Origin: a virus
Virus record (IMG/VR): IMGVR_UViG_3300022177_000070
Span: 1,007-65,006 of that record
Direction: 5' to 3' (one strand)
DNA: 64,000 bases
The first letter of the stretch is position 1, and each line of letters begins with the position of its first letter. The notes beneath the pieces were generated by a model. It worked only from the letters and a program-made list of their open reading frames with translations, was not told the DNA's origin and ran no database searches. The position numbers and the translations under genes were made by a program. Below are positions 1,639 through 27,556 of this stretch, one piece after another.

Positions 1639-1790
1639 GTGTTCCCCTTCTTGGCTCGGCGGCGGGCCTTCTTGGAGGGTGGCTTCGGCTCCTTCCGGCG
1701 TACAGACCCGTCGGCCTGGACCTCCAGGTGGGTTCCATCTTTATATCTCCAGGTGACTCCTGGGGTGTGGTAGCTGGGTGTCCGGTTCAT
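1620..1790 (-). CDS. Small basic hypothetical protein (56 aa)
   Basis: Hand-translated MNRTPSYHTPGVTWRYKDGTHLEVQADGSVRRKEPK...; ATG overlaps the thyX stop and the ORF fills the gap. Confidence 0.45.
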   Translation of the reverse strand: MNRTPSYHTPGVTWRYKDGTHLEVQADGSVRRKEPKPPSKKARRRAKKGNTCRSKG

Positions 1791-2434
1791 TACCACTCCA
1801 CCAACTCATTGAATATGAACGGAACCTTGCCCCTGAAGTCTTCCAAGAGAGGCTTCATCAGTTCCCGAATTTGCGGGTGGGCAGCCCTGGAGCAACGTAA
1901 CTGGAGAATGTGCGCCCATTCCCGCAGGTTGGCCGTAACCACAATCTCGGTCTTGAGGCTGTTGGGCAAGACGGCCCTGGCCTGCTCAGGACGCCAACCC
2001 TGTTTGAGCAACGTCTTGTAAGAAGCTTCGGCGCAGAGCATTTGGGCCAGCCAGATACGCTCCGGGTCCGTCGGACTGTCGGGCACGGCCCCGTGTTGGC
2101 CCAGCACGTCAGAAGAACACCAGACCGGGCGAATCAGCTTCACATGGCCATTGCCGTAGTTGCAGTACCGGGTGGATTCTTGGCTGAAGGCGCAGAGCCG
2201 GTGCCGGACGAGTTCGTGGGTGACGCCGCGGTCGGTGGTGAACCGCACGGAAGCACTGACATGCTCAATCACCGACAGGTGGCCCCGGCGCACAATGCGT
2301 TCTACAAACTCTTTGCTACTGCCGGGCCGGGCAAGCTCTTCGCTCTTGTAGCAAGTCCGACCAGCAGTTTCGATGATCTCCAGGGCCGAAATGGGCACCT
2401 GCTCCCACTGGTAATATTGTTCAATGACTTCCAT
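1790..2434 (-). CDS. thyX: Flavin-dependent thymidylate synthase
   Basis: THELVRHRLCAFSQESTRY signature, GHLSVIEH, ARAVLPNS, NLREWAH, AHPQIR. Confidence 0.95.
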   Translation of the reverse strand: MEVIEQYYQWEQVPISALEIIETAGRTCYKSEELARPGSSKEFVERIVRRGHLSVIEHVSASVRFTTDRGVTHELVRHRLCAFSQESTRYCNYGNGHVKLIRPVWCSSDVLGQHGAVPDSPTDPERIWLAQMLCAEASYKTLLKQGWRPEQARAVLPNSLKTEIVVTANLREWAHILQLRCSRAAHPQIRELMKPLLEDFRGKVPFIFNELVEW

Positions 2435-2446
2435 GCAGTCTTCCTC

Positions 2447-2791
2447 CTATCTTTTGTCGCCGCTACCCTGAATCACCCCCCGGCGCGCCCGGTCGTCCAG
2501 CTTCTCCAGGTTGACTCGGGCAACCGTGGCCAGGTCCAGGCCAAGCTCGGTGCAAAGGGCGGCAAGATACCACAAGACGTCCCCCAATTCATCGGCAAGG
2601 CATTCCCTGGTCTGTTGGGTCACAAAATTATTGTGGTCACGCATGACCTTTTTTATGATGTTCAGCGTTTCACCGGCTTCTGCTCCCAGACCCAAGGCTG
2701 GGTAATAGATACCGCGGGGATAGGCTGCCGTGGTGAGCGCGAGGCGTTGATAGTCCTTGAAATTTAGCTCAAAGGGGATTTCATTGGGCAT
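2447..2791 (-). CDS. MazG-like NTP pyrophosphohydrolase
   Basis: LGLGAEAGE...KK and ELGDVLWYLAAL...NLEKL motifs; likely start MPNEIPF at 2791. Confidence 0.85.
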   Translation of the reverse strand: MPNEIPFELNFKDYQRLALTTAAYPRGIYYPALGLGAEAGETLNIIKKVMRDHNNFVTQQTRECLADELGDVLWYLAALCTELGLDLATVARVNLEKLDDRARRGVIQGSGDKR

Positions 2792-2810
2792 AGAGTTTAT
2801 CCACCATTCT

Positions 2811-3569
2811 TTAAGCAGCCTGATAATCTCCCAACATAAGATTCTTAGGCTTCTTCGTGGCAATAACAATTGCCAATGATTTGTTGGAAATTTTAAGAGA
2901 TAGCCCTACATAAATACCCCAATCCTCACCGGCCTCGATGCCCCCACCGGCCTCGATGCCCCCACCGGCCTTGATGCCCCAACCAGCCTCGATGCCCCCA
3001 CCGGCCTCGATGCCCTCACCGGCCTCGATGCCCCCACCGGCCTCGATGCCCCCACCGGCCTCGATGCCCTCACCGGCCTTGATGCCCCAACCAGCCTCGA
3101 TGCCCCCACCGGCCTTGATGCCCCCACCAGCCTCGATGCCCCCACCGGCCTCGATGCCCCCACCGGCCTCGATGCCCCAACCAGCCTCGATGCCCTCACC
3201 GGCCTTGATGCCCTCACCGGCCTCGATGCCCCCACCGGCCTCGATGCCCCAACCAGCCTCGATGCCCCCACCGGCCTCGATGCCCCCACCGGCCTCGATT
3301 GATTTGGATATCCTTATTCTCCCCGACACTCGTATTGTGCCAGCATAAAAAATATTCCCGTCTATCACCAGGTCGCCAGCTATTTCCATGACAGAATCAA
3401 TAAGTCCAGCAGTTTTGAGCAACCAGAGACCCCAATCAACCCTGTTATCTGCGGCCAACCCGTCTAAGACATCCTGATAATTGCCACCTTCAGGAAAATT
3501 AGACCTAAACCATTCAATTCCGCCGACGCAGGCTCTTTTTTCTTTTAACCATTCAACTGTAATTTGCAT
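2811..3569 (-). CDS. Hexapeptide-repeat (I[EK]AG[GEW]G) protein, predicted beta-solenoid
   Basis: 21 tandem hexapeptides between a unique N-terminal domain (ITVEWLKEKRACVGGIEWF) and a short C-terminal cap. Confidence 0.8.
   Translation of the reverse strand: MQITVEWLKEKRACVGGIEWFRSNFPEGGNYQDVLDGLAADNRVDWGLWLLKTAGLIDSVMEIAGDLVIDGNIFYAGTIRVSGRIRISKSIEAGGGIEAGGGIEAGWGIEAGGGIEAGEGIKAGEGIEAGWGIEAGGGIEAGGGIEAGGGIKAGGGIEAGWGIKAGEGIEAGGGIEAGGGIEAGEGIEAGGGIEAGWGIKAGGGIEAGGGIEAGEDWGIYVGLSLKISNKSLAIVIATKKPKNLMLGDYQAA
2922..3299. repeat. 18-bp coding tandem repeat, 21 units
   Basis: Unit ccggcctcgatgccccca with variants and no spacers. Confidence 0.95.
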
Positions 3570-3573
3570 TTTG

Positions 3574-4101
3574 TTATACCTCTGTGGTGGTAGAGCGGAC
3601 GAAGCCGCGAACTATCAGGTTGCTGTGCTGGAGAAGGTACTTCGATTTCTCGTCGTAGTACTCCAGGTCCACCACCACAACCTCTTTAACCCCGGCGTTG
3701 ATGATCTCGATCAGGCAGTCGCCGCAAGGAATTGTCGTGTCCAAGTAGAGGGTGGCCCCCTTGGTTCGGATGCCCAGGCGGGCGGCTTGAATCAGGCAGT
3801 TGCGCTCGGCGTGGGCGGCAATGCACAGATGGAGACCTTCGCCCGATTTGTAGCCCAGCAGTTGCCGGGGACACATCTTCTCGTGTTCCTGAAACTCCAG
3901 GCCCTCCACAATCAATTTCTTGAGGATCGGATCACATTCGTACCGCTCGGCACAGTGCGGGACCCCCCGCGGCGGGCCGTTGTAGCCGGTACAGACCACC
4001 ACATTGTCCACGGCCAAGACGGCCCCAATCTTCCGCGACAAGCACTTGCTGCGGGAACCGACCACATGGCAGATGTTGAGGAAGTATTCATCCCAGGTCA
4101 T
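3574..4101 (-). CDS. dCMP deaminase
   Basis: SKCLSRKIGAVL, GYNGPPRG, HAERN and PCGDC zinc-deaminase motifs. Confidence 0.92.
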   Translation of the reverse strand: MTWDEYFLNICHVVGSRSKCLSRKIGAVLAVDNVVVCTGYNGPPRGVPHCAERYECDPILKKLIVEGLEFQEHEKMCPRQLLGYKSGEGLHLCIAAHAERNCLIQAARLGIRTKGATLYLDTTIPCGDCLIEIINAGVKEVVVVDLEYYDEKSKYLLQHSNLIVRGFVRSTTTEV

Positions 4102-4524
4102 ATTTTTTCCTTATTTGAGGTGGCCCCTGTCTCGTCGGGGCCATACGGTGCGGGTGATTAGCCTGGGTGACATTGGCAACGGTGCCCCGCCCAAAACCTT
4201 GACTCTCTGGATAAGGAGAGCATCACCCTTAAACCGCCCCATACAGGACGCCGGAGGATATCGGGGCGACCGGGGGACATCTTTTTAAGGGCTCTGCAAT
4301 TTGTCCAGATGGGCGTCACAGTGGTTCATGAGGTCAATGGCCTTGGTGGCCCTCGACATGATGCCGGTGGCCGGGGTCCGCGTCTTGTTGGTCGGGCCGT
4401 TCTGCGCCTCCGTGCTGGCGGCGTCCACGAGTTCGATCAGATTGGTCCGAATGGTATTGGATTCATGCCCATGCGATAGGGGTGTAGGGGGCAGTATTGC
4501 TGATCGCAAAGTCGCACCGCCTTG

Positions 4525-4872
4525 GGCCCCCCAACGCACTGCATCCAGAAAAGCCTCGAGTTTGTCCGTCGAGTCCCAGCCGGTTATTTTGGGAAGTCCA
4601 GCCCGTTCCAGAACCCGAGCACCCGGTTCCAATTCCCACAAGACTTGCAAGCTTTCGCCTAAGGAATCCTCGTCAAGCGAGCCAAGTGTGACCAGGTGTT
4701 GCTTTCCGTTCCCAACTGACGAGAAGGCCGATGCCTGAATATCGCTGACGACCCACTGGCGGCGTCGAACCTCGACTAGCTGACCTGGATCGGGTACCGA
4801 GCGACTCCAAACCCTTTCGGCAAGATCTTTTCGTCGTCTTCCAGAGATGTGCTCCGGCTCCTGCGTTGCCAT
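4525..4872 (-). pseudogene. drmD: N-terminal fragment of DISARM SNF2-like helicase DrmD; frame continues into unrelated sequence to 4285
   Basis: PDPGQLVEVRRRQWVVSD...LQVLWELEPGARVLERAGLP...LEAFLDAVRWGA matches the DrmD N-terminus as recalled. No helicase motifs follow. Confidence 0.75.
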
Positions 4873-4876
4873 TCTT

Positions 4877-5959
4877 TCACTTTCTTGTATGGAACTCGAC
4901 GTTCTCAAGTATGCTCAAACCTATAACCTTCCCAAGTTGGACCGGAACGGCGTTACCGATAAGTCTTCCTAACGATTTCTTATAGATTGGTGTACCAGGG
5001 GGTATGAAAACATAATCTCTTGGAAAACTCTGGAGGATCGCCCCTTCTCGCAAAGAAATGGCCCGGTTTTGTTCTGGATGGCCGAAGCGACCATTACCGA
5101 ATCCGAAAAATTGGGTAGTTATAGTGGGAGCGAGGTCGTCCCATGACATGCGGCCATATACACTGGGATATGTCTTACCAGTCCCCTTCATGTGACAGTC
5201 CGCTACCAGTGTTTTCCTCCATTCCCGCCATGTCCCACCTGGGCGCGATGCTTTAATGCGTGCCATGTTGATCCGAGTAAGCGCCGAAGCCTGATGCAAG
5301 GGGTCTTCCTTGTCTACCTCGCCAGCCTCCAGAGGGGGCAAATCACTGATTTTCTCGCGAACGGTCGAACGCTCGGAACCGAACTCGGATGGAGTTAGTA
5401 GACGAATCGGACCAAGTTGCGACGCCAGCAGGACCAGTCTTTGCCGCTGTTGGGGAATACCATAATCCGCACAGTTCACGATCCCATAAGTTACGTGATA
5501 GCAAGCATTCGCCAAGTCTTCGACAAAATGCTTAAAAACATCTCTTAACATTAACCTGGGAACGTTTTCCATGGTGACCAAATGAGGTGAGAGTTCCTTT
5601 ACGAGCCTTGAGAACTGATTTAGTAGCCACCATCGGTTGTCCGCGGAGGTAGCTTTCTGATTGTACGTGGAAAAAGTTTGACAAGGGGCACATCCTGCCA
5701 GAAGATGAATACCTCTCTTGGGGAACACCTTTGCGATATCTTGCGATTTTAAGTCCTCGACGGGCTTCAAAAGAAATTTAGCCTTATTGTTGGTCGTGTA
5801 AGGGAACTCGCAAGCCGGATCGACATCTATCCCGAGCCGGACATTGATACCGGTTTTCTCCAACCCGTGCGTGAGCCCACCTGCGCCACAGAATAGATCC
5901 ACAGCGTAGACTTCTCGATTGAGTTGCTTTCCCCTTCGAGTCGGCTCCTTGGGTTTCAT
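4877..5959 (-). CDS. dcm: DNA (cytosine-5)-methyltransferase
   Basis: Motif I DLFCGAGG, catalytic GCAPCQ, ENV, RQRL, SLREGAILQSFP, IGNAVP; likely start MKPKEPT at 5959. Confidence 0.95.
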   Translation of the reverse strand: MKPKEPTRRGKQLNREVYAVDLFCGAGGLTHGLEKTGINVRLGIDVDPACEFPYTTNNKAKFLLKPVEDLKSQDIAKVFPKRGIHLLAGCAPCQTFSTYNQKATSADNRWWLLNQFSRLVKELSPHLVTMENVPRLMLRDVFKHFVEDLANACYHVTYGIVNCADYGIPQQRQRLVLLASQLGPIRLLTPSEFGSERSTVREKISDLPPLEAGEVDKEDPLHQASALTRINMARIKASRPGGTWREWRKTLVADCHMKGTGKTYPSVYGRMSWDDLAPTITTQFFGFGNGRFGHPEQNRAISLREGAILQSFPRDYVFIPPGTPIYKKSLGRLIGNAVPVQLGKVIGLSILENVEFHTRK

Positions 5960-5979
5960 CTTTTCCGATTCCTGATTTC

Positions 5980-6063
5980 TTAGGCCTTCGAGTGGTCCAA
6001 GGCTGCACCACCGGCCTTCACCCATTCGTCGACTTCGTCTTTTTTGAATTTCCATAATCGCCC
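5980..6063 (-). pseudogene. C-terminal remnant of an excisionase-type HTH regulator (MAD1-like, typical of methylation-based defence loci)
   Basis: Hand translation GRLWKFKKDEVDEWVKAGGAALDHSKA*; N-terminal half missing and an in-frame stop lies just upstream. Confidence 0.7.
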
Positions 6064-6065
6064 CT

Positions 6066-6290
6066 TCAATCAGGTCCCTCATGGTTTGACTCCTTTTCGC
6101 TTATTGAGTGGGAGGTTTTGAGATTTCCAATGCGTCCTACACCGGCACGGTTGGGGTTGTTTCCCATCCGGTAGAAGTGTAGGGAGCAGTCAGCTTGGTC
6201 GCACTCCCGTACCAGCGACGGCTTGCCACAACAACACTCCAGGCATTTCAACCTGATGGCCTTGAGCGGAGTGGGCTGCTTGTCGCTCAT
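6066..6290 (-). CDS. Conserved small Cys-rich phage protein
   Basis: TPLKAIRLKCLECC...VREC...CSLHFYRMG pattern. Confidence 0.65.
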   Translation of the reverse strand: MSDKQPTPLKAIRLKCLECCCGKPSLVRECDQADCSLHFYRMGNNPNRAGVGRIGNLKTSHSISEKESNHEGPD

Positions 6291-6832
6291 GGACCGACGG
6301 GTGAAGCCTGAAAGGGAGAGGTAACGTGACCCTTGTTTTTGAGCAAGAACTCCATCTCCTGGTCCTGGTTCAGGCGCTCTTTTACCTCTTTCAGGCGACG
6401 TGCTTCTCGGTCTTCAACAATCCGTCTGATTCTTTTTATATCTTCAGGGCTTGGTATTTTTTTGCACAAGTCATTGTCGGTGGCTTCGGAAACAAAGCCG
6501 GTGCCATTGATTTCCGGATTCAAGAGCTTGCCCACGGCGAAGACCATGCGGCAGAGGGCGTGTTGCAGGTGCGGCTCCCCCAGGTCACCCGCCAGGTAGG
6601 CATAGATGTGGGCGAGACAGTGGTTCAAGTGGCTGTGCAAAGGTATGCCGTGCCAGTTGTTCTCGCCGTACTTGGCCGCGCCCTTGTGGGCGATTTGGGC
6701 CACCGCGGCCAGGGCGAAGGGGTCAAGCAGGTCATAGCGATAATTCACCGCCGACTGCATGGCACCATTCTCCAGGGTTTCCACCGGCATGTCGTCTGTG
6801 GGAAATAGCTTGTCCATCAGTCCTCCAGGCAC
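6287..6832 (-). CDS. dATP/dGTP diphosphohydrolase domain protein (DUF5664-like)
   Basis: RYDLL...GAAKYGENNW...HLNHCLAH...EPHLQHALC pattern. Confidence 0.8.
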   Translation of the reverse strand: MPGGLMDKLFPTDDMPVETLENGAMQSAVNYRYDLLDPFALAAVAQIAHKGAAKYGENNWHGIPLHSHLNHCLAHIYAYLAGDLGEPHLQHALCRMVFAVGKLLNPEINGTGFVSEATDNDLCKKIPSPEDIKRIRRIVEDREARRLKEVKERLNQDQEMEFLLKNKGHVTSPFQASPVGP

Positions 6833-9663: not shown

Positions 9664-9691
9664 ATTCTATTCAGTTTTGGAATTATGTCAA
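9664..9691 (-). promoter_or_regulatory. Sigma70-like promoter for the leftward early operon
   Basis: Minus strand TTGACA-N16-TAGAAT; the spacer overlaps an ATTC-N7-GAAT box (9669-9683). Confidence 0.6.
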
Positions 9692-18142: not shown

Positions 18143-18808
18143 TTAGGGCACAAAGGCATGTTTAAGGGCGTCCAAGTATCTGTTGATGTGCCATGCTTCT
18201 TTGTCGCTGCCAAGTTCTATAAGGGCTCTCAGGTGGCCATCTATTATTGTGTTGTCGGGGCTGATTTCCTTCAGGGCGTAATAGGTGGTTCTGGTCTGCT
18301 CGTAAAGTGCCAAGAGTTCAGACCATAGGCGGGCGGCTTCAGCCTGCCGGTCTTCGTTTATCTCTTCTGTGGTGGCGGCGCGGTCGAAAAATATCAGGCC
18401 GGGATATTTCCTTGAATCGTACTTAGGGATAAGCCGGGTAATGTATCCGCGGGGCTCCCTCCAAACGTCTTCCTCCAGGTCTAAAAAGTCGGCAGATATA
18501 AAGACATGGGCCTTTTTTGTGTTGTACGGCGGCATGTTGTCGGTAAAGAGGTTGTAAAAGGGCTTGCCGTCATACCAGGGCCGGGGCCGGTGGGTCAAGC
18601 CGGGCAAAGTAAGAGAGTCGTTTCTTCCGTCAAAAGCTCCGTTTAGGTTGACAAGCTTGAGGGGGTTTCCCTGGTCTAGTTCGTTCTGCCAATAAATTGT
18701 TAGTTTCTTCACTCTATAGGGGCCGCGGTTTTTTGCTCCGGTTTTCAGTTCATACCAACAAAATGCTCCCCTGTCAGTCACATGGTTGAGCAAGCGTGCG
18801 GTGGCCAT
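18143..18808 (-). CDS. Hypothetical protein (221 aa)
   Basis: ORF track; C-terminal helical region weakly similar to that of 16944..17561. Confidence 0.7.
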   Translation of the reverse strand: MATARLLNHVTDRGAFCWYELKTGAKNRGPYRVKKLTIYWQNELDQGNPLKLVNLNGAFDGRNDSLTLPGLTHRPRPWYDGKPFYNLFTDNMPPYNTKKAHVFISADFLDLEEDVWREPRGYITRLIPKYDSRKYPGLIFFDRAATTEEINEDRQAEAARLWSELLALYEQTRTTYYALKEISPDNTIIDGHLRALIELGSDKEAWHINRYLDALKHAFVP

Positions 18809-18811
18809 GTC

Positions 18812-19036
18812 TTAAGCTCCCATGAAAAACAAACTTTCAAGTTTTGAGTTTGTTCTTTCTTTAAGGGCCTTGTTGTGAATTTCGCGGACGCGCCCGAGGG
18901 GGTCCAGGGCGTTAATTTCCCGCGAGAGTTCTGCATACCTTCCTGTGGCCTTCATGATGGCGGCGTAAAGCCTTAACCGGCGTTCGCTGTACTCGAGGTC
19001 AATTCCGGCGTCGGCTATCTCTTGGCAAATTGCCAA
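18812..19036 (-). CDS. Hypothetical protein or 5'-truncated gene
   Basis: The frame extends upstream through AAPDLLAIC to a stop without an ATG; contains INALDPLGRVREIHNKALK. Confidence 0.45.
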   Translation of the reverse strand: MAICQEIADAGIDLEYSERRLRLYAAIMKATGRYAELSREINALDPLGRVREIHNKALKERTNSKLESLFFMGA

Positions 19037-19151
19037 GAGGTCTGGCGCGGCGGGCCTGCCGGGCCTGATGTTTATCCATTATCCACAGGCCGATGATAAT
19101 TCCGGCGGCGAATATTGCCAGGGCTTCCGGGGTCATTAGGGCCGGGTTCAT
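18999..19151 (-). CDS. Small single-TM protein (50 aa)
   Basis: Hand-translated MNPALMTPEALAIFAAGIIIGLWIMDKHQARQARR... Confidence 0.4.
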   Translation of the reverse strand: MNPALMTPEALAIFAAGIIIGLWIMDKHQARQARRARPLGNLPRDSRRRN

Positions 19152-19156
19152 GGGCA

Positions 19157-19276
19157 TCACTTTTTCCCCCTTGTATTTTTGATTGCTGCCAGCAATAGGG
19201 CCTTTCTCTCTTCTTTTGACAAGCTCTTGTAAAAAGGGCTTAGTCTTAAGGCGCGGGCAACGTCCAGGGCTTTCAT
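19157..19276 (-). CDS. Small basic protein (39 aa)
   Basis: MKALDVARALRLSPFYKSLSKEERKALLLAAIKNTRGKK; GGAGA RBS. Confidence 0.45.
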   Translation of the reverse strand: MKALDVARALRLSPFYKSLSKEERKALLLAAIKNTRGKK

Positions 19277-19288
19277 GGTCTTTATCTC

Positions 19289-19450
19289 CTATGCGGCGCG
19301 GCGGGCCTTAATCCGGGCGCGGGTTGCGTTCAAGGTCTTCATTACCTGGGGCCGGGGGTCTTCCTGGGCCTGGGCTTTGATCTCTTCGAGGTCCAGGGCT
19401 TCGCGGTGGTTCCGGCGGGCCTGTCTGACTTTGATCTTATAGCCGGGCAT
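19289..19450 (-). CDS. Small basic protein (53 aa)
   Basis: MPGYKIKVRQARRNHREALDLEEIK...; AGGGA RBS. Confidence 0.45.
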   Translation of the reverse strand: MPGYKIKVRQARRNHREALDLEEIKAQAQEDPRPQVMKTLNATRARIKARRAA

Positions 19451-19507
19451 GGGTTCCCTTTCTTTCAGGGGTCCAGGGCTGGCCGTCCGTGGCCTGCCGG
19501 GGGTCCC

Positions 19508-20818
19508 TTAATCCATCGTGATTACTTCGCCAAAGGGCGGTTGAAAACCGTTCTTCCCTTGCTGGGTGAGTATCCATAAAACCGGATAGGCGGGCGGTTC
19601 GGGAAAGCGGTTGCAGTATCCGTCTGTGAGATATACCGCGGCCACAGGGTCAAGCTCTTCCTGGTCGATATACTCAAAGCCGGGCCGGAAGTCCGTTCCT
19701 CCTCCCCCGCGGGCGTTAAGCTTCAGGGGCAGGTCTTCGCTTTCAAAGCGTTCCACCGCGGCAAGCTGGGCGTCCACGTAAATCACGGTGGCGGCGGTGC
19801 GGTAGGCTTCCAGTATGCCGGTGATCTCTCCGGCGAATACGTTTAATTCATCCTGGCCGATACTGCCGGACGTGTCCACGATAACGGCTATTTCGGGGAG
19901 TTCGTTGCTCCGCAAGCCGGGCAGGAAAAAGCCGGTGTGCATGTAGCGGGAATTGGGCCGGGTCCAGGCGTAATCATTCCGGGCGGTTTGTTCGATGAAT
20001 TGCCGTAAGATATCGGTCCAGGGCAGGGCCGGAGATATCACCGCGTCGATAAGCCGGGCCAGGTCGGCGGGTAAATTGCCTTGGGCCTTGGCGGTGGCCG
20101 CGGCCTGCACTATCCTGACCATCTGGTCTTGCTGGGCCTGTTGGCGTTCCTGGGGGTCGGCGGCGGGGTAGTCTCTGACTTCTCCCACGTTCCCCTTGAA
20201 ATTCGCGGGGGGCGGGGCCTGGGGGCTGGGGGCCTGTCCCTGTCCCTGTCCGTTGCCGGGTTGGTCCTGGGGCTGGCCGTCGGGCTGGCCGTCTTGCGGT
20301 TGTTCGGGGTCATTGCCGGGGGTGCCGGGGCTGTTGCCGGGCTGGGGCTGTTCCTGGGGTTGCTCTTGGGGCTGTTCCTGGGGGGCCGGGGATTGCTCCG
20401 GGGGCTTGCGGTAAATCTTCTTATAAACATCTTCCGCGGAGTCGTCCAGGTATTGAGTATCGTACAGCGCGCCGTCGTCCAGGGAAAAGCCGTCATTTTT
20501 GAGTATGCCGTTAATGGTATAATCGGCGGCTATATTCCAGGTTTCATGATCGCGGGGGCCGCGGCGAAAGTTGTGCATGTTGGCGATATGCAATACTTCA
20601 TGGGCCACCGCGCCCTTAAGCTGGTCAATGGGCAAGCCGTTCACGTAGTCGGGATTAAAACCAAGGGTCAAGCCGTCGGTCCATAGGGTCTGACAAGTCG
20701 GGTCTGCTTCAAGCTTCAGGTTTAAGGCGATACTGGCGAAAAAGGGCTTGTTGATTACCAGACCGGCGCGGGCCTTTTTCATCTTGTCAATAGCTTGTTG
20801 ATAGTCGGCGGGTTGCAT
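19508..20818 (-). CDS. Metallopeptidase-like plus vWA domain protein (DUF2201-like)
   Basis: VAHEVLHIANMH (HExxH), Pro/Gln/Gly linker, VIVDTSGSI MIDAS, GGGGTDF, YLTDGY. Confidence 0.88.
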   Translation of the reverse strand: MQPADYQQAIDKMKKARAGLVINKPFFASIALNLKLEADPTCQTLWTDGLTLGFNPDYVNGLPIDQLKGAVAHEVLHIANMHNFRRGPRDHETWNIAADYTINGILKNDGFSLDDGALYDTQYLDDSAEDVYKKIYRKPPEQSPAPQEQPQEQPQEQPQPGNSPGTPGNDPEQPQDGQPDGQPQDQPGNGQGQGQAPSPQAPPPANFKGNVGEVRDYPAADPQERQQAQQDQMVRIVQAAATAKAQGNLPADLARLIDAVISPALPWTDILRQFIEQTARNDYAWTRPNSRYMHTGFFLPGLRSNELPEIAVIVDTSGSIGQDELNVFAGEITGILEAYRTAATVIYVDAQLAAVERFESEDLPLKLNARGGGGTDFRPGFEYIDQEELDPVAAVYLTDGYCNRFPEPPAYPVLWILTQQGKNGFQPPFGEVITMD

Positions 20819-20830
20819 TGGGCCTGCTCC

Positions 20831-21817
20831 TTAAGCCATGTATCCGGCCATTTTATTCAAGAGGTTGTCCATATCCACCGCGGGCGGGGGAGTCGGGGCC
20901 GGGGGTTCCGGGGCCACCGCGGGGGCCTGGGGGGCCTGCTCGGGGGCGGGCTGGGCCTGGGGGCCGTCCATGAGGGCCGCAATCTTCCCGGCCAGGGTCG
21001 CGGCGTCGGCGGCTGTCTGTTGCCGGATTAAAGGGGCCTTTCTCAGGCTGTTTATGTCGATGCCGTCTAAAATCTTCTGCTCGATCTCCCGGCGCATGGT
21101 ATCAAGGGCGGGGTCGTTGGTCATGTTCAGGCGGGGCAGTAAATTAATGAGGTCTTGCAAGTTGGTTATCACGGTTTCCCTTATCACCGCGTCGGGGTCG
21201 GAAAGCTTCTCCGCCATATGGGAAACAGTGTCAAAAAGACGTTGCCACAAGTCCCGCATGGCGTACGCGGTGGCCTGTCTCAAGCTGGTGTCAAGCTCTT
21301 CCCTGATTCGCTTTATCTCCCCGTCTCCCAGGTCAACCCGGAAATCAGGGGCGGCGGGTAGGGGGCTGACGAAAATGGAAAAACTGTACTTCTTCGCCAG
21401 TTTTTCCGGGGCCGGGTAGTCGTCGGGCTTGAAAAGGTTATTCAGGCGGTTTGCGTGCTCTTGAATTCTCTGCGGATATACCGCGAATAGATCAATAACC
21501 GCGTCTTGGAATTCCCGTTTAAGGCGGTCCATTTCCCGGGTGTATTCAAAATAGTTTTCCGCGGGGAGGATATCCGCGCCTTTGTGGGTCCAGGGGAGGG
21601 TATTGGCGTAGTGAAAAGACCGGGCGGAGTTGTTGGCCTTTTTAATCCGGTCCAGTTCGGGACATTGCAGCAATACCTTGTTATACCTGCCCGCGTCGCG
21701 GTCGGTGCCGTAGGTGGCCGCGACGTTCTCCGTCGCTTCCTTATCTTCCCGGCGGGCGTTCCAGGTCGATATATTCAGGCTCACGAGCATAGCCTTTTCC
21801 GACAAGTTCTTTTCCAT
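20831..21817 (-). CDS. Conserved phage protein (DUF3150-like) between AAA and vWA genes
   Basis: AMLVSLNISTW, AGRYNKVLL, HYANTLPW, FKPDDYP; neighbourhood typical as recalled. Confidence 0.6.
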   Translation of the reverse strand: MEKNLSEKAMLVSLNISTWNARREDKEATENVAATYGTDRDAGRYNKVLLQCPELDRIKKANNSARSFHYANTLPWTHKGADILPAENYFEYTREMDRLKREFQDAVIDLFAVYPQRIQEHANRLNNLFKPDDYPAPEKLAKKYSFSIFVSPLPAAPDFRVDLGDGEIKRIREELDTSLRQATAYAMRDLWQRLFDTVSHMAEKLSDPDAVIRETVITNLQDLINLLPRLNMTNDPALDTMRREIEQKILDGIDINSLRKAPLIRQQTAADAATLAGKIAALMDGPQAQPAPEQAPQAPAVAPEPPAPTPPPAVDMDNLLNKMAGYMA

Positions 21818-26108: not shown

Positions 26109-26423
26109 TCACCACGTTATCCCCAGCGCAGCCTGCTCATGAGTGTCACATAAGCGAGCATTTTCTTTTCTGCAAGCTTTGCAGATGCGAATGTTTATTT
26201 TGTCTGGACTGTTGAAATAATTCAGACATTTCAGGCATTGTAACGTTTCATTGCCGTTGTGTAACGCTTCAGTAACGTTCTTGGGTCTGTTTCTGAGGTA
26301 GCGGCGGTGGTACTCCCTGCTGCACTCGCCCCCGCAGGTCTTCTTTTGGGGCCGGGTGGTTATGAACCAGTCGCCGCATATTTCACATCTGCCCCTTCTG
26401 GGTGTTGCTGCCGTCCTTGGCAT
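26109..26423 (-). CDS. Zinc-finger protein
   Basis: CEICG, CGGEC, CLKC, CKAC motifs. Confidence 0.6.
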   Translation of the reverse strand: MPRTAATPRRGRCEICGDWFITTRPQKKTCGGECSREYHRRYLRNRPKNVTEALHNGNETLQCLKCLNYFNSPDKINIRICKACRKENARLCDTHEQAALGITW

Positions 26424-27556
26424 GTGGTCTCCCTCGTGGCATGAACGAAAGCTTCGGGGACCTTCTCGCTGGCCCGCCGGACTGCCTGAAGAACATATTC
26501 CTCATTCAATTCGATCCCCACGGTGTCTCTTCCCATCCGGGCGGCCACGATCCCTGTGGTTCCCGCTCCAAAGAAGGGGTCCAACACGGTGGCTGGGACC
26601 GGCTCCGCGTCGGTTATGCAGTCACAGGTGGGCACCCAGCCCACGGTGATCTCTTCTCTTAGCCCAGCCAGGACCTTGCGCTTCAGGTCGCTCGGGTTCT
26701 CGGCTCCGGCCTTCTCGTAGTCCTTCTTTCCCTGCCCCCGGTACTCCCCGGACTTGTCGGCTCCACACCGGGCCTGGGCCTCTCGATCCGGCTTACCTTT
26801 GTCAACCAGTCGCCCGAAGGGAGCAAGGCAGGCCGGGCAGACCCCATACTCGGAGGTTCCGGCGGTGACACACCTTTCCACAAGACGTTCAGGAAACGTG
26901 GCAAAGTGGTTGCCGCCATAGTTGGGGGCCGGGATGATCCAGACCGACTTGGGGGTGTTGAAGGGCTGGTAGGGGTCCTTCTTGATAAGCTCCTTCAGAC
27001 CCAGCCAGTCCCAATAGTAGTTTTTACTCTTGGAGAGGACGAAGATGGATTCGTGGGAGTGGATGCACCTGTCCCGGTAGCCCTCGGGCCGCGGGTTGGG
27101 CTTGAACCAGACGATCTCCTGGCGCAGATACCAGCCGTCGGCCCGGAGGGCCTGGGCCACCAGCCAGGGGATGCCGATGAGGTCCTTTGGTTTCAGGCCG
27201 GGCACCTTCCTGCCGGGGTATTTGGCACACTTCTCCCGCAGCCCTCCTTTGTTGTGGTCTCCCCCGGCCCCCCCGGAGCCGTTGTACGAGTCGCCGAGGA
27301 CCAGGAATAGCACTCCGTCCGGCCTCAAGACCCGCTTGACATGGGAAAAGCACTCGACCAGGTGGGCGGCGTACTGCTCCGGGGTGGGTTCAGCCCCCAA
27401 TTCACCCTTCCAGCCATCCTCCCAGGTCGCCGGATCGGTCTCATAGTTCCGCAGACCGAAGTACGGGGGTGAGGTCACGGCCATGTGGAAGTAATCAGAG
27501 GCGGTCAAGGCGCACACGTCGCGCACATCACCCTTAACAACGTCTATCCTTGCCAA
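26360..27556 (-). CDS. DNA amino-methyltransferase, beta class (N4-cytosine likely)
   Basis: TSPPYF catalytic motif precedes VLDPFFGAGTTG AdoMet motif; HFATFP; Cys-rich insert. Confidence 0.92.
   Translation of the reverse strand: MARIDVVKGDVRDVCALTASDYFHMAVTSPPYFGLRNYETDPATWEDGWKGELGAEPTPEQYAAHLVECFSHVKRVLRPDGVLFLVLGDSYNGSGGAGGDHNKGGLREKCAKYPGRKVPGLKPKDLIGIPWLVAQALRADGWYLRQEIVWFKPNPRPEGYRDRCIHSHESIFVLSKSKNYYWDWLGLKELIKKDPYQPFNTPKSVWIIPAPNYGGNHFATFPERLVERCVTAGTSEYGVCPACLAPFGRLVDKGKPDREAQARCGADKSGEYRGQGKKDYEKAGAENPSDLKRKVLAGLREEITVGWVPTCDCITDAEPVPATVLDPFFGAGTTGIVAARMGRDTVGIELNEEYVLQAVRRASEKVPEAFVHATRETTCQGRQQHPEGADVKYAATGS

What the first reader, a model, noticed from the sequence alone, without database searches (positions are those of the whole stretch)
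4525..6066. Phage captured a slice of a DISARM-like defence locus, keeping only the methyltransferase intact
Three co-oriented pieces appear in operon order: the 3' remnant of a MAD1-like HTH gene (GRLWKFKKDEVDEWVKAGGAA), a complete C5 MTase, and the first ~115 codons of DrmD. Both flanking genes are cut, so the breakpoints (~6064 and ~4525) bracket the MTase, and the block looks more AT-rich than its flanks. Inference: the phage took a bacterial self-marking enzyme to evade the cognate methylation-sensing defence. The intact truncated neighbours suggest a recent event.
Basis: partly seen in the sequence, partly recalled or inferred. Interest (0 to 1): 0.78.

Follow-up and report, generated by a model that had tools for sequence, protein, structure and literature searches.

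The report
Phage-captured DISARM methyltransferase slice
A temperate phage has a 1.6-kb piece of a bacterial DISARM defence operon inserted into one of its early genes; only the cytosine methyltransferase is whole, and a related phage still shows the uninterrupted gene, so this is a clear example of a known anti-restriction strategy rather than a new one.

Summary
Window 6064..4525 (minus strand) is one ungapped 1540-nt match (86.2% nt) to a metagenomic bacterial locus, L002. That locus reads HTH(mad1-like)-C5 MTase(DrmMII)-DrmD-DrmMI-...-DrmA. Related genomes continue with DrmB and DrmC, which makes it a class 1 DISARM with the extra DrmMII.

The phage keeps the last 27 codons of the HTH, a complete 360-aa MTase with all catalytic motifs, and the first 116 codons of DrmD.

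New here:
- **Empty site.** A related phage contig (L251) lacks the block. The 1609-nt insert (6067..4459) sits between codons 5 and 6 of a 62-aa phage gene, here called Y.
- **Two chimeric frames.** Y's strong ribosome-binding site and ATG now head a 401-aa frame that runs into the MTase. The DrmD fragment reads in frame into the rest of Y.
- **Filler.** The insert ends with 66 nt from a foreign copy of the neighbouring zinc-ribbon gene family.
- **Not a phage-type MTase.** It is sister to L002 inside a DrmD-linked bacterial clade, outside the large viral-only clade.

The anti-defence role is inferred. Published work shows that 5mC only partly silences DISARM. The true donor was not found; the best match is 86%. 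This is a new member of a known kind, of moderate interest.

The parts
6066..6290 (-). Gene X: 74-aa zinc-ribbon phage gene directly upstream of the insert. Its stop (6066-6068) lies inside the start of gene Y.
   Evidence: ORF. The family is found in 72 viral contigs. The L251 homolog is 82.7% nt identical.
6068..6095 (-). 5' end of the split phage gene Y: AAGGAG ribosome-binding site (6095..6090), ATG 6082..6080 and codons 1-5 (MRDLI). It now heads the 401-aa frame that runs into the MTase.
   Evidence: Sequence. The intact 62-aa Y in L251 (1005-1193) has the same RBS and MRDLI start.
4459..6067 (-). The whole 1609-nt insert relative to the empty-site phage L251.
   Evidence: blastn: L251 774-1019 = window 6316-6068 and L251 1020-1333 = window 4458-4146. 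Three-way junction alignment.
5980..6064 (-). 3' remnant (27 codons plus stop) of a mad1-like HTH_17 gene; its first ~45 codons are missing.
   Evidence: The full 73-74-aa gene is present in L002 and L003.
4877..5959 (-). Complete C5 cytosine MTase (DrmMII type), 360 aa from its native ATG at 5959. The frame is open upstream to ATG 6082 (401 aa).
   Evidence: PF00145 E 2.2e-53, DrmMII E 4.5e-85. It aligns end to end without gaps with L002, 86% aa. Motifs FxGxG, PCQ, ENV, QxRxR and GN all fall in invariant columns.
4525..4872 (-). First 116 codons of DrmD (SNF2 helicase of class 1 DISARM): the N-terminal beta-barrel domain and the start of the next helix. The ATPase core is absent.
   Evidence: PADLOC DrmD E 2.4e-47. 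86% aa to L002 DrmD; homology stops at 4525. AlphaFold pLDDT is 80-94 for residues 21-90.
4459..4524 (-). 66-nt filler derived from the middle of an X-family zinc-ribbon gene. It is not a copy of this phage's own X and is absent from L251.
   Evidence: BLASTP of the 48-aa frame 4583..4440 (which contains the filler) to X: 53% over 38 aa, E 4e-11; its first ~10 aligned residues lie in DrmD-derived DNA. Absent from the empty site.
4285..4458 (-). 3' part of gene Y (codons 6-62 plus stop), now in frame behind the DrmD fragment and the filler. Together these form a 195-aa chimeric ORF, 4872..4285.
   Evidence: 57 codons align with L251 Y, dN/dS 0.116.
9664..9691 (-). Candidate early-left promoter (TTGACA-16-TAGAAT) just downstream of the CI-like repressor gene. 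It is the likely source of transcription through exonuclease, RecT, X, the MTase and the nucleotide-metabolism genes.
   Evidence: Consensus scan, 11 of 12 matches. All ORFs from 9627 down to 192 are co-oriented. Function is inferred.

Best explanation
An ancestor of this temperate phage acquired 1540 nt from the 5' end of a class 1 DISARM operon of the type HTH-DrmMII-DrmD-DrmMI-DrmA-DrmB-DrmC. The transfer was by illegitimate recombination, because there are no target-site duplication and no terminal repeats.

The piece, plus 66 nt of filler from a foreign zinc-ribbon gene, sits between codons 5 and 6 of a small early gene, Y. The cuts removed the DNA-binding part of the HTH and the whole ATPase core of DrmD. 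Only the C5 MTase can still work as an enzyme.

The MTase lies in the early-left operon. It can be translated from its native ATG (5959) or, as a 401-aa fusion, from Y's strong ribosome-binding site and ATG (6082).

Shown: the anatomy, the donor-type synteny, the empty site, the placement in the tree and the intact catalytic motifs.

Inferred: during lytic growth the enzyme puts the DISARM 'self' 5mC mark on phage DNA. Progeny are then less well recognised by hosts with a cognate DISARM system, and by any restriction enzyme blocked by the same mark. The module then spreads between related phages by homologous recombination.
For:
- L002 and L003 gene order is HTH_17, PF00145, SNF2, Eco57I-type N6 MTase, helicase. 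PADLOC scores for L002: DrmD 1483 bits, DrmMI 1849 bits, mad1 E 2.5e-15.
- DrmB (PF09369) and DrmC (PF13091) lie directly behind DrmA in three related genomes.
- About 34 of 80 genome loci with this MTase family have DrmD directly downstream.
- Tree: the window is sister to L002 (support 99) within a DrmD-linked clade (support 96), separate from a 36-row viral-only clade.
- The empty-site phage L251 has intact Y.
- All MTase motifs are in invariant columns and there are no gaps or stops.
- dN/dS against L002 is 0.13 for the MTase and 0.16 for the DrmD piece.
- GC3 is donor-like.
- The block is 100% identical in contigs of four runs (studies P1, P2, P3). One of them is a phage whose flanks differ beyond 7038 and below 4479.
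- A 206-nt contig in a metatranscriptome library is identical to 5602-5807. This is only a weak hint of transcription.
- Literature: class 1 DISARM can carry an extra drmMII. Methylating donors raised plasmid transfer 82- to 134-fold (10.1101/2021.12.28.474362). 5mC DNA lowers DrmAB ATPase activity (PMC9142583).
Against: - No methylation or expression data exist for this phage, and the MTase's target motif is unknown.
- Class 1 DISARM protects largely independently of the methylation state of incoming phage DNA. It also uses a second mark (m6A by DrmMI) that the phage lacks (10.1101/2021.12.28.474362).
- Class 2 DISARM still restricted modified phage (cited in PMC9142583).
- The host is unknown, so it is unknown whether any host of this phage carries the cognate system.
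- The closest bacterial locus is only 86% identical, so the actual donor and the number of intermediate carriers are unknown.
- The filler shows the history had more than one joint.
- The bulk GC deviation is modest: about 10% of same-size windows are as low.
Confidence: 0.8

Rival explanations
1. Passive scar. The slice arrived through a chance illegitimate recombination and is simply tolerated. The MTase may be active but gives the phage no measurable advantage against DISARM, and would in time be lost.
For: - Both neighbours are useless fragments, and the insert carries junk filler and split a phage gene.
- Class 1 DISARM defence is largely independent of methylation (10.1101/2021.12.28.474362).
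- The low dN/dS of all pieces is equally explained by a very recent arrival.
Against: - The block is 100% identical in contigs of four runs (studies P1, P2, P3). One is a mosaic phage with different flanks that sits at about 600x contig depth, so the block spreads and persists.
- The MTase kept every catalytic motif and sits behind a strong ribosome-binding site in an early operon.
- Orphan MTases are a well-established phage anti-restriction tool (background knowledge).
Confidence: 0.12
2. The benefit goes to the lysogen, not to the virion. The prophage-borne DrmMII-type MTase acts as a defence or exclusion function, or as an epigenetic regulator of the host.
For: In the Serratia system, DrmMII alone reduced M13 and T1 propagation (10.1101/2021.12.28.474362, Discussion). 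The record is classed as a provirus.
Against: - The gene has no promoter of its own: the scan found none on the minus strand between 9664 and 4877.
- It lies deep in the co-oriented early-left operon downstream of the repressor-controlled region, among recombination and nucleotide-metabolism genes.
- That position predicts lytic, not lysogenic, expression.
Confidence: 0.05
3. The DrmD N-terminal domain is kept on purpose. The 195-aa DrmD'-Y fusion would be a decoy that binds a partner of DrmD and poisons DISARM, working alongside the MTase.
For: - The cut leaves the confidently folded N-terminal beta-barrel whole: pLDDT 80-94 for residues 21-90.
- The fragment is open, has its native start and runs in frame into the conserved rest of Y.
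- dN/dS is 0.16.
- A second viral contig (L267) carries another truncated DrmD N-terminus.
Against: - An in-frame joint is a one-in-three chance, and low dN/dS is expected for any recent capture.
- All 13 other viral contigs with this domain carry full-length DrmD in whole loci.
- The ribosome-binding site before ATG 4872 is weak.
- No partner of the DrmD N-domain is known, and fold matches are only weak (E 0.04 or worse, Tudor/SH3-like).
Confidence: 0.08

Closest known systems
DrmMII of class 1 DISARM with an extra cytosine methylase (Serratia sp. SCBI type; Ofir et al. 2018 as cited in, and Aparicio-Maldonado et al., 10.1101/2021.12.28.474362)
   Same: - It is a PF00145 C5 MTase, and the best PADLOC hits include DrmMII at E 4.5e-85.
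- The nearest relatives sit directly upstream of DrmD-DrmMI-DrmA-DrmB-DrmC.
- An enterobacterial locus with the same order (L097, Raoultella) belongs to the same family.
   Different: - In the phage the MTase is an orphan, with no DrmMI, DrmA, DrmB or DrmC and only a stub of DrmD.
- The target motif is not known. It is MTCGAK for Serratia, but the Serratia sequence was not compared here.
Phage-encoded orphan DNA methyltransferases used for anti-restriction
   Same: A stand-alone MTase in an early phage operon. The expected role is self-methylation of progeny DNA.
   Different: - It does not belong to the large viral-only clade of the same family.
- Unlike the 71 of 80 viral loci with a clean MTase, it still carries truncated bacterial neighbours on both sides.
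- An empty-site relative exists, so the capture itself can be read.
MAD1 (first gene of the MADS defence operon) / HTH_17 excisionase-type regulators
   Same: The full-length donor-type HTH hits PADLOC mad1 at E 2.5e-15 and 5.9e-16, and Pfam HTH_17.
   Different: - Only the last 27 codons remain in the phage, without the helix-turn-helix.
- The loci are DISARM, not MADS.
- MAD1 is described as a widespread regulator type (10.1101/2023.03.30.534895).

Membership tests
C5 cytosine DNA methyltransferase (PF00145) | Full-length match to the family profile above the curated cut-off | tested here: met
   182.3 bits against a cut-off of 22; profile positions 4-322 of 324.
C5 cytosine DNA methyltransferase (PF00145) | Catalytic and SAM-binding motifs: I FxGxG, IV PCQ, VI ENV, VIII QxRxR, X GN | tested here: met
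   F23/G25/G27, P92/C93/Q94, E131/N132/V133, Q170/R172/R174 and G335/N336 are invariant columns of the 35-sequence alignment whose first row is the window protein.
C5 cytosine DNA methyltransferase (PF00145) | Methylates cytosine C5 in a defined motif | not testable with these tools
   Needs a methylome or an enzyme assay.
Class 1 DISARM (donor-type bacterial loci) | drmD (SNF2) and drmMI (N6 MTase) upstream of the core | tested here: met
   L002: DrmD 1483 bits, DrmMI 1849 bits. The same order occurs in L003 and about 34 genome loci.
Class 1 DISARM (donor-type bacterial loci) | Core triplet drmA (helicase), drmB (DUF1998) and drmC (PLD) | tested here: met
   DrmA was found by tblastn in many loci. 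PF09369 and PF13091 ORFs lie directly behind DrmA, on the same strand, in the genomes of L050, L027 and L024. This was not checked for L002 itself, because the locus ends inside DrmA.
Class 1 DISARM (the phage block itself) | A working defence system: DrmA, DrmB and a complete DrmD present | tested here: not met
   Only 116 codons of DrmD remain, and no DrmMI, DrmA, DrmB or DrmC was seen in the ORFs annotated here or in the tblastx comparison with L002. The block is a fragment of such a system, not a member.
DrmD | SNF2 ATPase core (PF00176 plus Helicase_C) behind the N-terminal domain | tested here: not met
   Homology stops at 4525, about 40 codons before motif I (DxxGLGKT) of L002 DrmD. Pfam finds no domain in the 207-aa ORF.
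HTH_17 / mad1-like regulator | Helix-turn-helix DNA-binding part present | tested here: not met
   Only profile positions 32-49 of 51 remain, with stops directly upstream.
Transposon or insertion-sequence cargo | Target-site duplication and terminal inverted repeats at the insert ends | tested here: not met
   The three-way junction alignment with the empty site shows no duplicated bases: CCTGATT|GAAGGGG ... GAATCC|AATACC against CCTGATT|AACACC. No transposase lies in the block.

The most novel reading that the evidence does not exclude
The truncated DrmD is not debris. The phage would express the intact N-terminal beta-barrel domain of DrmD, fused to the C-terminal 57 residues of its own gene Y, as a dominant-negative decoy. 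The decoy would titrate a DISARM partner, so the captured slice would supply two counter-measures at once: the self mark and a subunit mimic. This would be the first protein inhibitor of DISARM derived from the system itself.
Probability: 0.08. Interest if true: 0.8.

Novelty: new member of a known kind. Interest (0 to 1): 0.5.

Why it matters
Phages are assumed to obtain anti-restriction methyltransferases from bacterial defence systems, but the transfer is rarely caught with its evidence intact. Here all of it is present:
- the donor-type operon;
- both cut neighbours;
- base-level junctions;
- filler DNA;
- a relative with the uninterrupted target gene;
- a second mosaic phage that has already received the module.

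It links a phage orphan MTase specifically to the DrmMII of class 1 DISARM, a system for which few counter-measures are documented. It also gives a concrete pair to test: this MTase against a matching HTH-DrmMII-DrmD-DrmMI-DrmABC operon. That test would show how far a single 5mC mark can switch DISARM off. Finally, it shows how a captured gene can take over the translation start of the gene it disrupts.

Tried and rejected
- **Closer donor.** The 5.8-billion-protein search gave 86% aa as the best non-self hit. The scan of 185,579 species genomes gave at most 71%. The phage collection gave only 67% nt over 258 nt, in Moraxella phages. No near-identical donor exists in these sets.
- **Tandem X-X' ancestor.** I first read the X-like piece at 4524..4459 as the stub of a second resident copy of X. 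I rejected this once L251 showed the piece is absent from the empty site.
- **Close phage relatives in IMG/VR.** The dGTP-diphosphohydrolase-like gene gave at best 43% aa. X-family loci (72) are all distant and share no synteny.
- **Shared flanks with L002.** The flanks of L002 share nothing significant with the phage beyond the block. This gives no support for L002's element being the direct source.
- **Other viral MTases of the family.** They were checked for hidden HTH or DrmD stubs and none was found at E up to 1.
- **Fold of the DrmD N-domain.** Only weak Tudor/SH3-like matches, E 0.04 or worse.
- **Target motif.** The closest solved structures are DNMT1, M.HaeIII and M.HhaI at low similarity, which does not fix a motif. 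Palindrome counts in the phage, including TCGA at 0.95 of expectation, are uninformative.
- **Transcription.** Only one 206-nt metatranscriptome contig matches, which is not proof.
- **Diversity-generating retroelement for the X patch.** Rejected, because the changes are not specific to adenines.
- **Complex prediction.** Not run, because no binding claim is made.

Full report
**What is there.** All genes from about 9627 down to 192 lie on the minus strand. Pfam identifies several of them as a temperate-phage early operon:
- a dATP/dGTP diphosphohydrolase-like gene, 6832..6287, and a dCMP deaminase, 4101..3574;
- MazG and ThyX;
- YqaJ-type exonuclease and RecT, from the gene table of the identical contig L004.

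The record is an IMG/VR provirus of 71,307 nt.

**The three pieces.**
- The quoted peptide is encoded at 6063..6001. The 29-aa open piece 6069..5983 matches the last third of Pfam HTH_17 (positions 32-49 of 51, E 0.008), with stops directly upstream.
- ORF 6082..4877 is a C5 MTase (PF00145, E 2.2e-53; PADLOC DrmMII, E 4.5e-85).
- Residues 36-132 of ORF 4908..4285 match the first ~110 positions of DrmD models (E 2.4e-47). No helicase core follows.

**Donor-type locus.** The closest MTase outside this phage (P0002, 86% aa) lies on a 244.6-kb metagenomic contig. Its gene order is HTH_17 (74 aa), MTase, SNF2 helicase, Eco57I-type N6 MTase, two inserted genes, and a large helicase (L002). Desulfacinum infernum has the same order (L003).

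blastn of the window against L002 gives one ungapped HSP, window 6064..4525 = L002 9896..11435, 1540 nt, 86.2%. Nothing else in L002 resembles the phage.

PADLOC calls the L002 genes DrmD (1483 bits) and DrmMI (1849 bits), and calls the small HTH mad1-like (E 2.5e-15). In three related genomes a DUF1998 gene and a PLD gene follow DrmA directly. The source type is therefore a complete class 1 DISARM with the additional drmMII, a known variant (10.1101/2021.12.28.474362).

Among 80 genome loci with this MTase family, about 34 have DrmD directly downstream and about 20 have the HTH upstream.

**Phylogeny.** In a tree of 160 MTases, the window is sister to L002 (support 99). It lies inside a six-row clade (support 96) whose members with readable context are all DrmD-linked. 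Their named rows are Thermodesulfobacteriota and Nitrospirota. A separate 36-row clade is purely viral. The enzyme is therefore not one of the long-resident phage MTases of this family.

**Is the MTase intact?** It aligns with L002 without gaps or stops. It carries motifs I, IV, VI, VIII and X in invariant columns. dN/dS against L002 is 0.13.

**The insertion site.** This part is new. A homolog of the diphosphohydrolase-like gene (P0274, 72% aa) lies on a 1762-nt contig, L251, which aligns with the window as follows:

| L251 | Window | Identity |
|---|---|---|
| 1-658 | 7104-6444 | 93.6% |
| 774-1019 | 6316-6068 | 82.7% |
| 1020-1333 | 4458-4146 | 80.1% |
| 1647-1762 | 4101-3986 | 88.8% |

L251 is thus an empty site. 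It carries an intact 62-aa gene, here called Y, with an AAGGAG ribosome-binding site and the start MRDLI. In the window, Y is split between codon 5 (ending at 6068) and codon 6 (starting at 4458) by 1609 nt.

The insert is made of three parts:
- 3 nt of unclear origin;
- the 1540-nt DISARM slice;
- 66 nt (4524..4459) that encode part of an X-family zinc ribbon. The 48-aa frame containing it is 53% identical to X over 38 aa (E 4e-11). It is not a copy of the phage's own X and is missing from L251.

No bases are duplicated at the ends and there are no terminal repeats. The joints are therefore illegitimate, at least three in number, and probably not all made in one step.

**Consequences for coding.**
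- Y's ribosome-binding site and ATG (6082) now open a frame that crosses the HTH remnant out of its frame. It runs without a stop into the MTase, giving the 401-aa ORF that gene callers report.
- The native ATG at 5959 has a weaker ribosome-binding site.
- The DrmD fragment, from its own ATG at 4872, reads through the filler into codons 6-62 of Y, giving a 195-aa chimera.
- AlphaFold folds residues ~31-89 of the chimera as a confident five-stranded barrel (pLDDT 80-94 for residues 21-90). The next helix crosses the breakpoint, and the Y tail is of low confidence.
- Fold matches are weak (Tudor/SH3-like, E 0.04 or worse).

**How recent, and how mobile?**
- The block keeps donor-like composition: GC 51.5% against 51.9% in L002, and GC3 0.52-0.57 against 0.65-0.78 in neighbouring genes.
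- The DrmD piece has dN/dS 0.16 against L002. The split Y has dN/dS 0.12 against L251 at dS of about 0.95. Neither has drifted as a pseudogene for long.
- The block is 100% identical wherever it was seen. That covers L004 (the source-like mixed culture), L005 and run X2 (an aquatic metagenome, contig depth about 600), and runs X3 and X4.
- The X2 phage differs from the window above 7038 and below 4479, so the module has already moved between mosaic phages.

**Function.** No methylation data exist, so this is inferred. The position deep in the early-left operon, downstream of a near-consensus promoter beside the repressor gene, predicts lytic expression and methylation of progeny DNA.

Published work supports a partial benefit only:
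- Methylating donors raised plasmid entry into class 1 DISARM cells 82- to 134-fold, yet phage defence was described as largely independent of methylation state (10.1101/2021.12.28.474362).
- 5mC DNA lowers but does not abolish DrmAB ATPase activity, and class 2 DISARM still restricted modified phage (PMC9142583).
- The phage took only one of the system's two marks.

Protection from ordinary restriction enzymes that share the motif is an equally good pay-off.

**Verdict.** The observation and the core reading are correct. It is an instance of a known strategy, not a new kind of system.

Noticed in passing
window 6144-6224 (inside gene X, 6066..6290): 22 of the 23 differences between the window and L005 over 2238 nt fall in this 81-nt patch (codons 23-49 of the zinc-ribbon gene X). 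The rest, including the whole captured block as far as L005 reaches (down to 4801), is identical. The changes are not specific to adenines, so this looks like a local recombination patch rather than retroelement-driven mutagenesis.
   Followed up: partly
window 26360-27556 (-): The phage carries a second DNA methyltransferase, of the N6_N4_Mtase family (PF01555, E 1.2e-37).
   Followed up: no
window 1790-6832 (-): A run of nucleotide-pool genes surrounds the insert: a dATP/dGTP diphosphohydrolase-like gene (6287..6832), dCMP deaminase (3574..4101), MazG (2447..2869) and ThyX (1790..2434). This may point to remodelling of the dNTP pool or to a modified base.
   Followed up: no
window 2811-3569 (-): A 252-aa ORF consists largely of GGGIEA-type hexapeptide repeats (18-nt period, strong GC skew). 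It has no Pfam or PHROG match.
   Followed up: no
L267:3755-4606 (IMGVR_UViG_3300032154_000074): Another viral contig has a 283-aa ORF with a truncated DrmD N-terminus (DrmD model positions 12-171, E 8e-84) and no SNF2 core. It lies about 1.8 kb from an unrelated C5 MTase-Vsr pair.
   Followed up: partly
L254-L266 (IMG/VR contigs): Thirteen contigs classed as viral carry DrmMII-type MTase with full-length DrmD, twelve of them with the HTH and several with DrmMI. Whole DISARM loci therefore ride on, or sit beside, prophages, a plausible intermediate source for the slice.
   Followed up: partly
L002:10001-11452 and 18446-21267: In L002 the MTase frame lacks the stop seen in the window and runs on for 483 aa over the start of DrmD, so the gene caller shortened DrmD. 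This DISARM locus also has UvrD_C_2 and DUF2290 genes inserted between DrmMI and DrmA.
   Followed up: no
L251:1005-1193 and window 4285-4458: Gene Y (62 aa) has no Pfam or PHROG family, yet it is under strong purifying selection between the two phages (dN/dS 0.12).
   Followed up: partly
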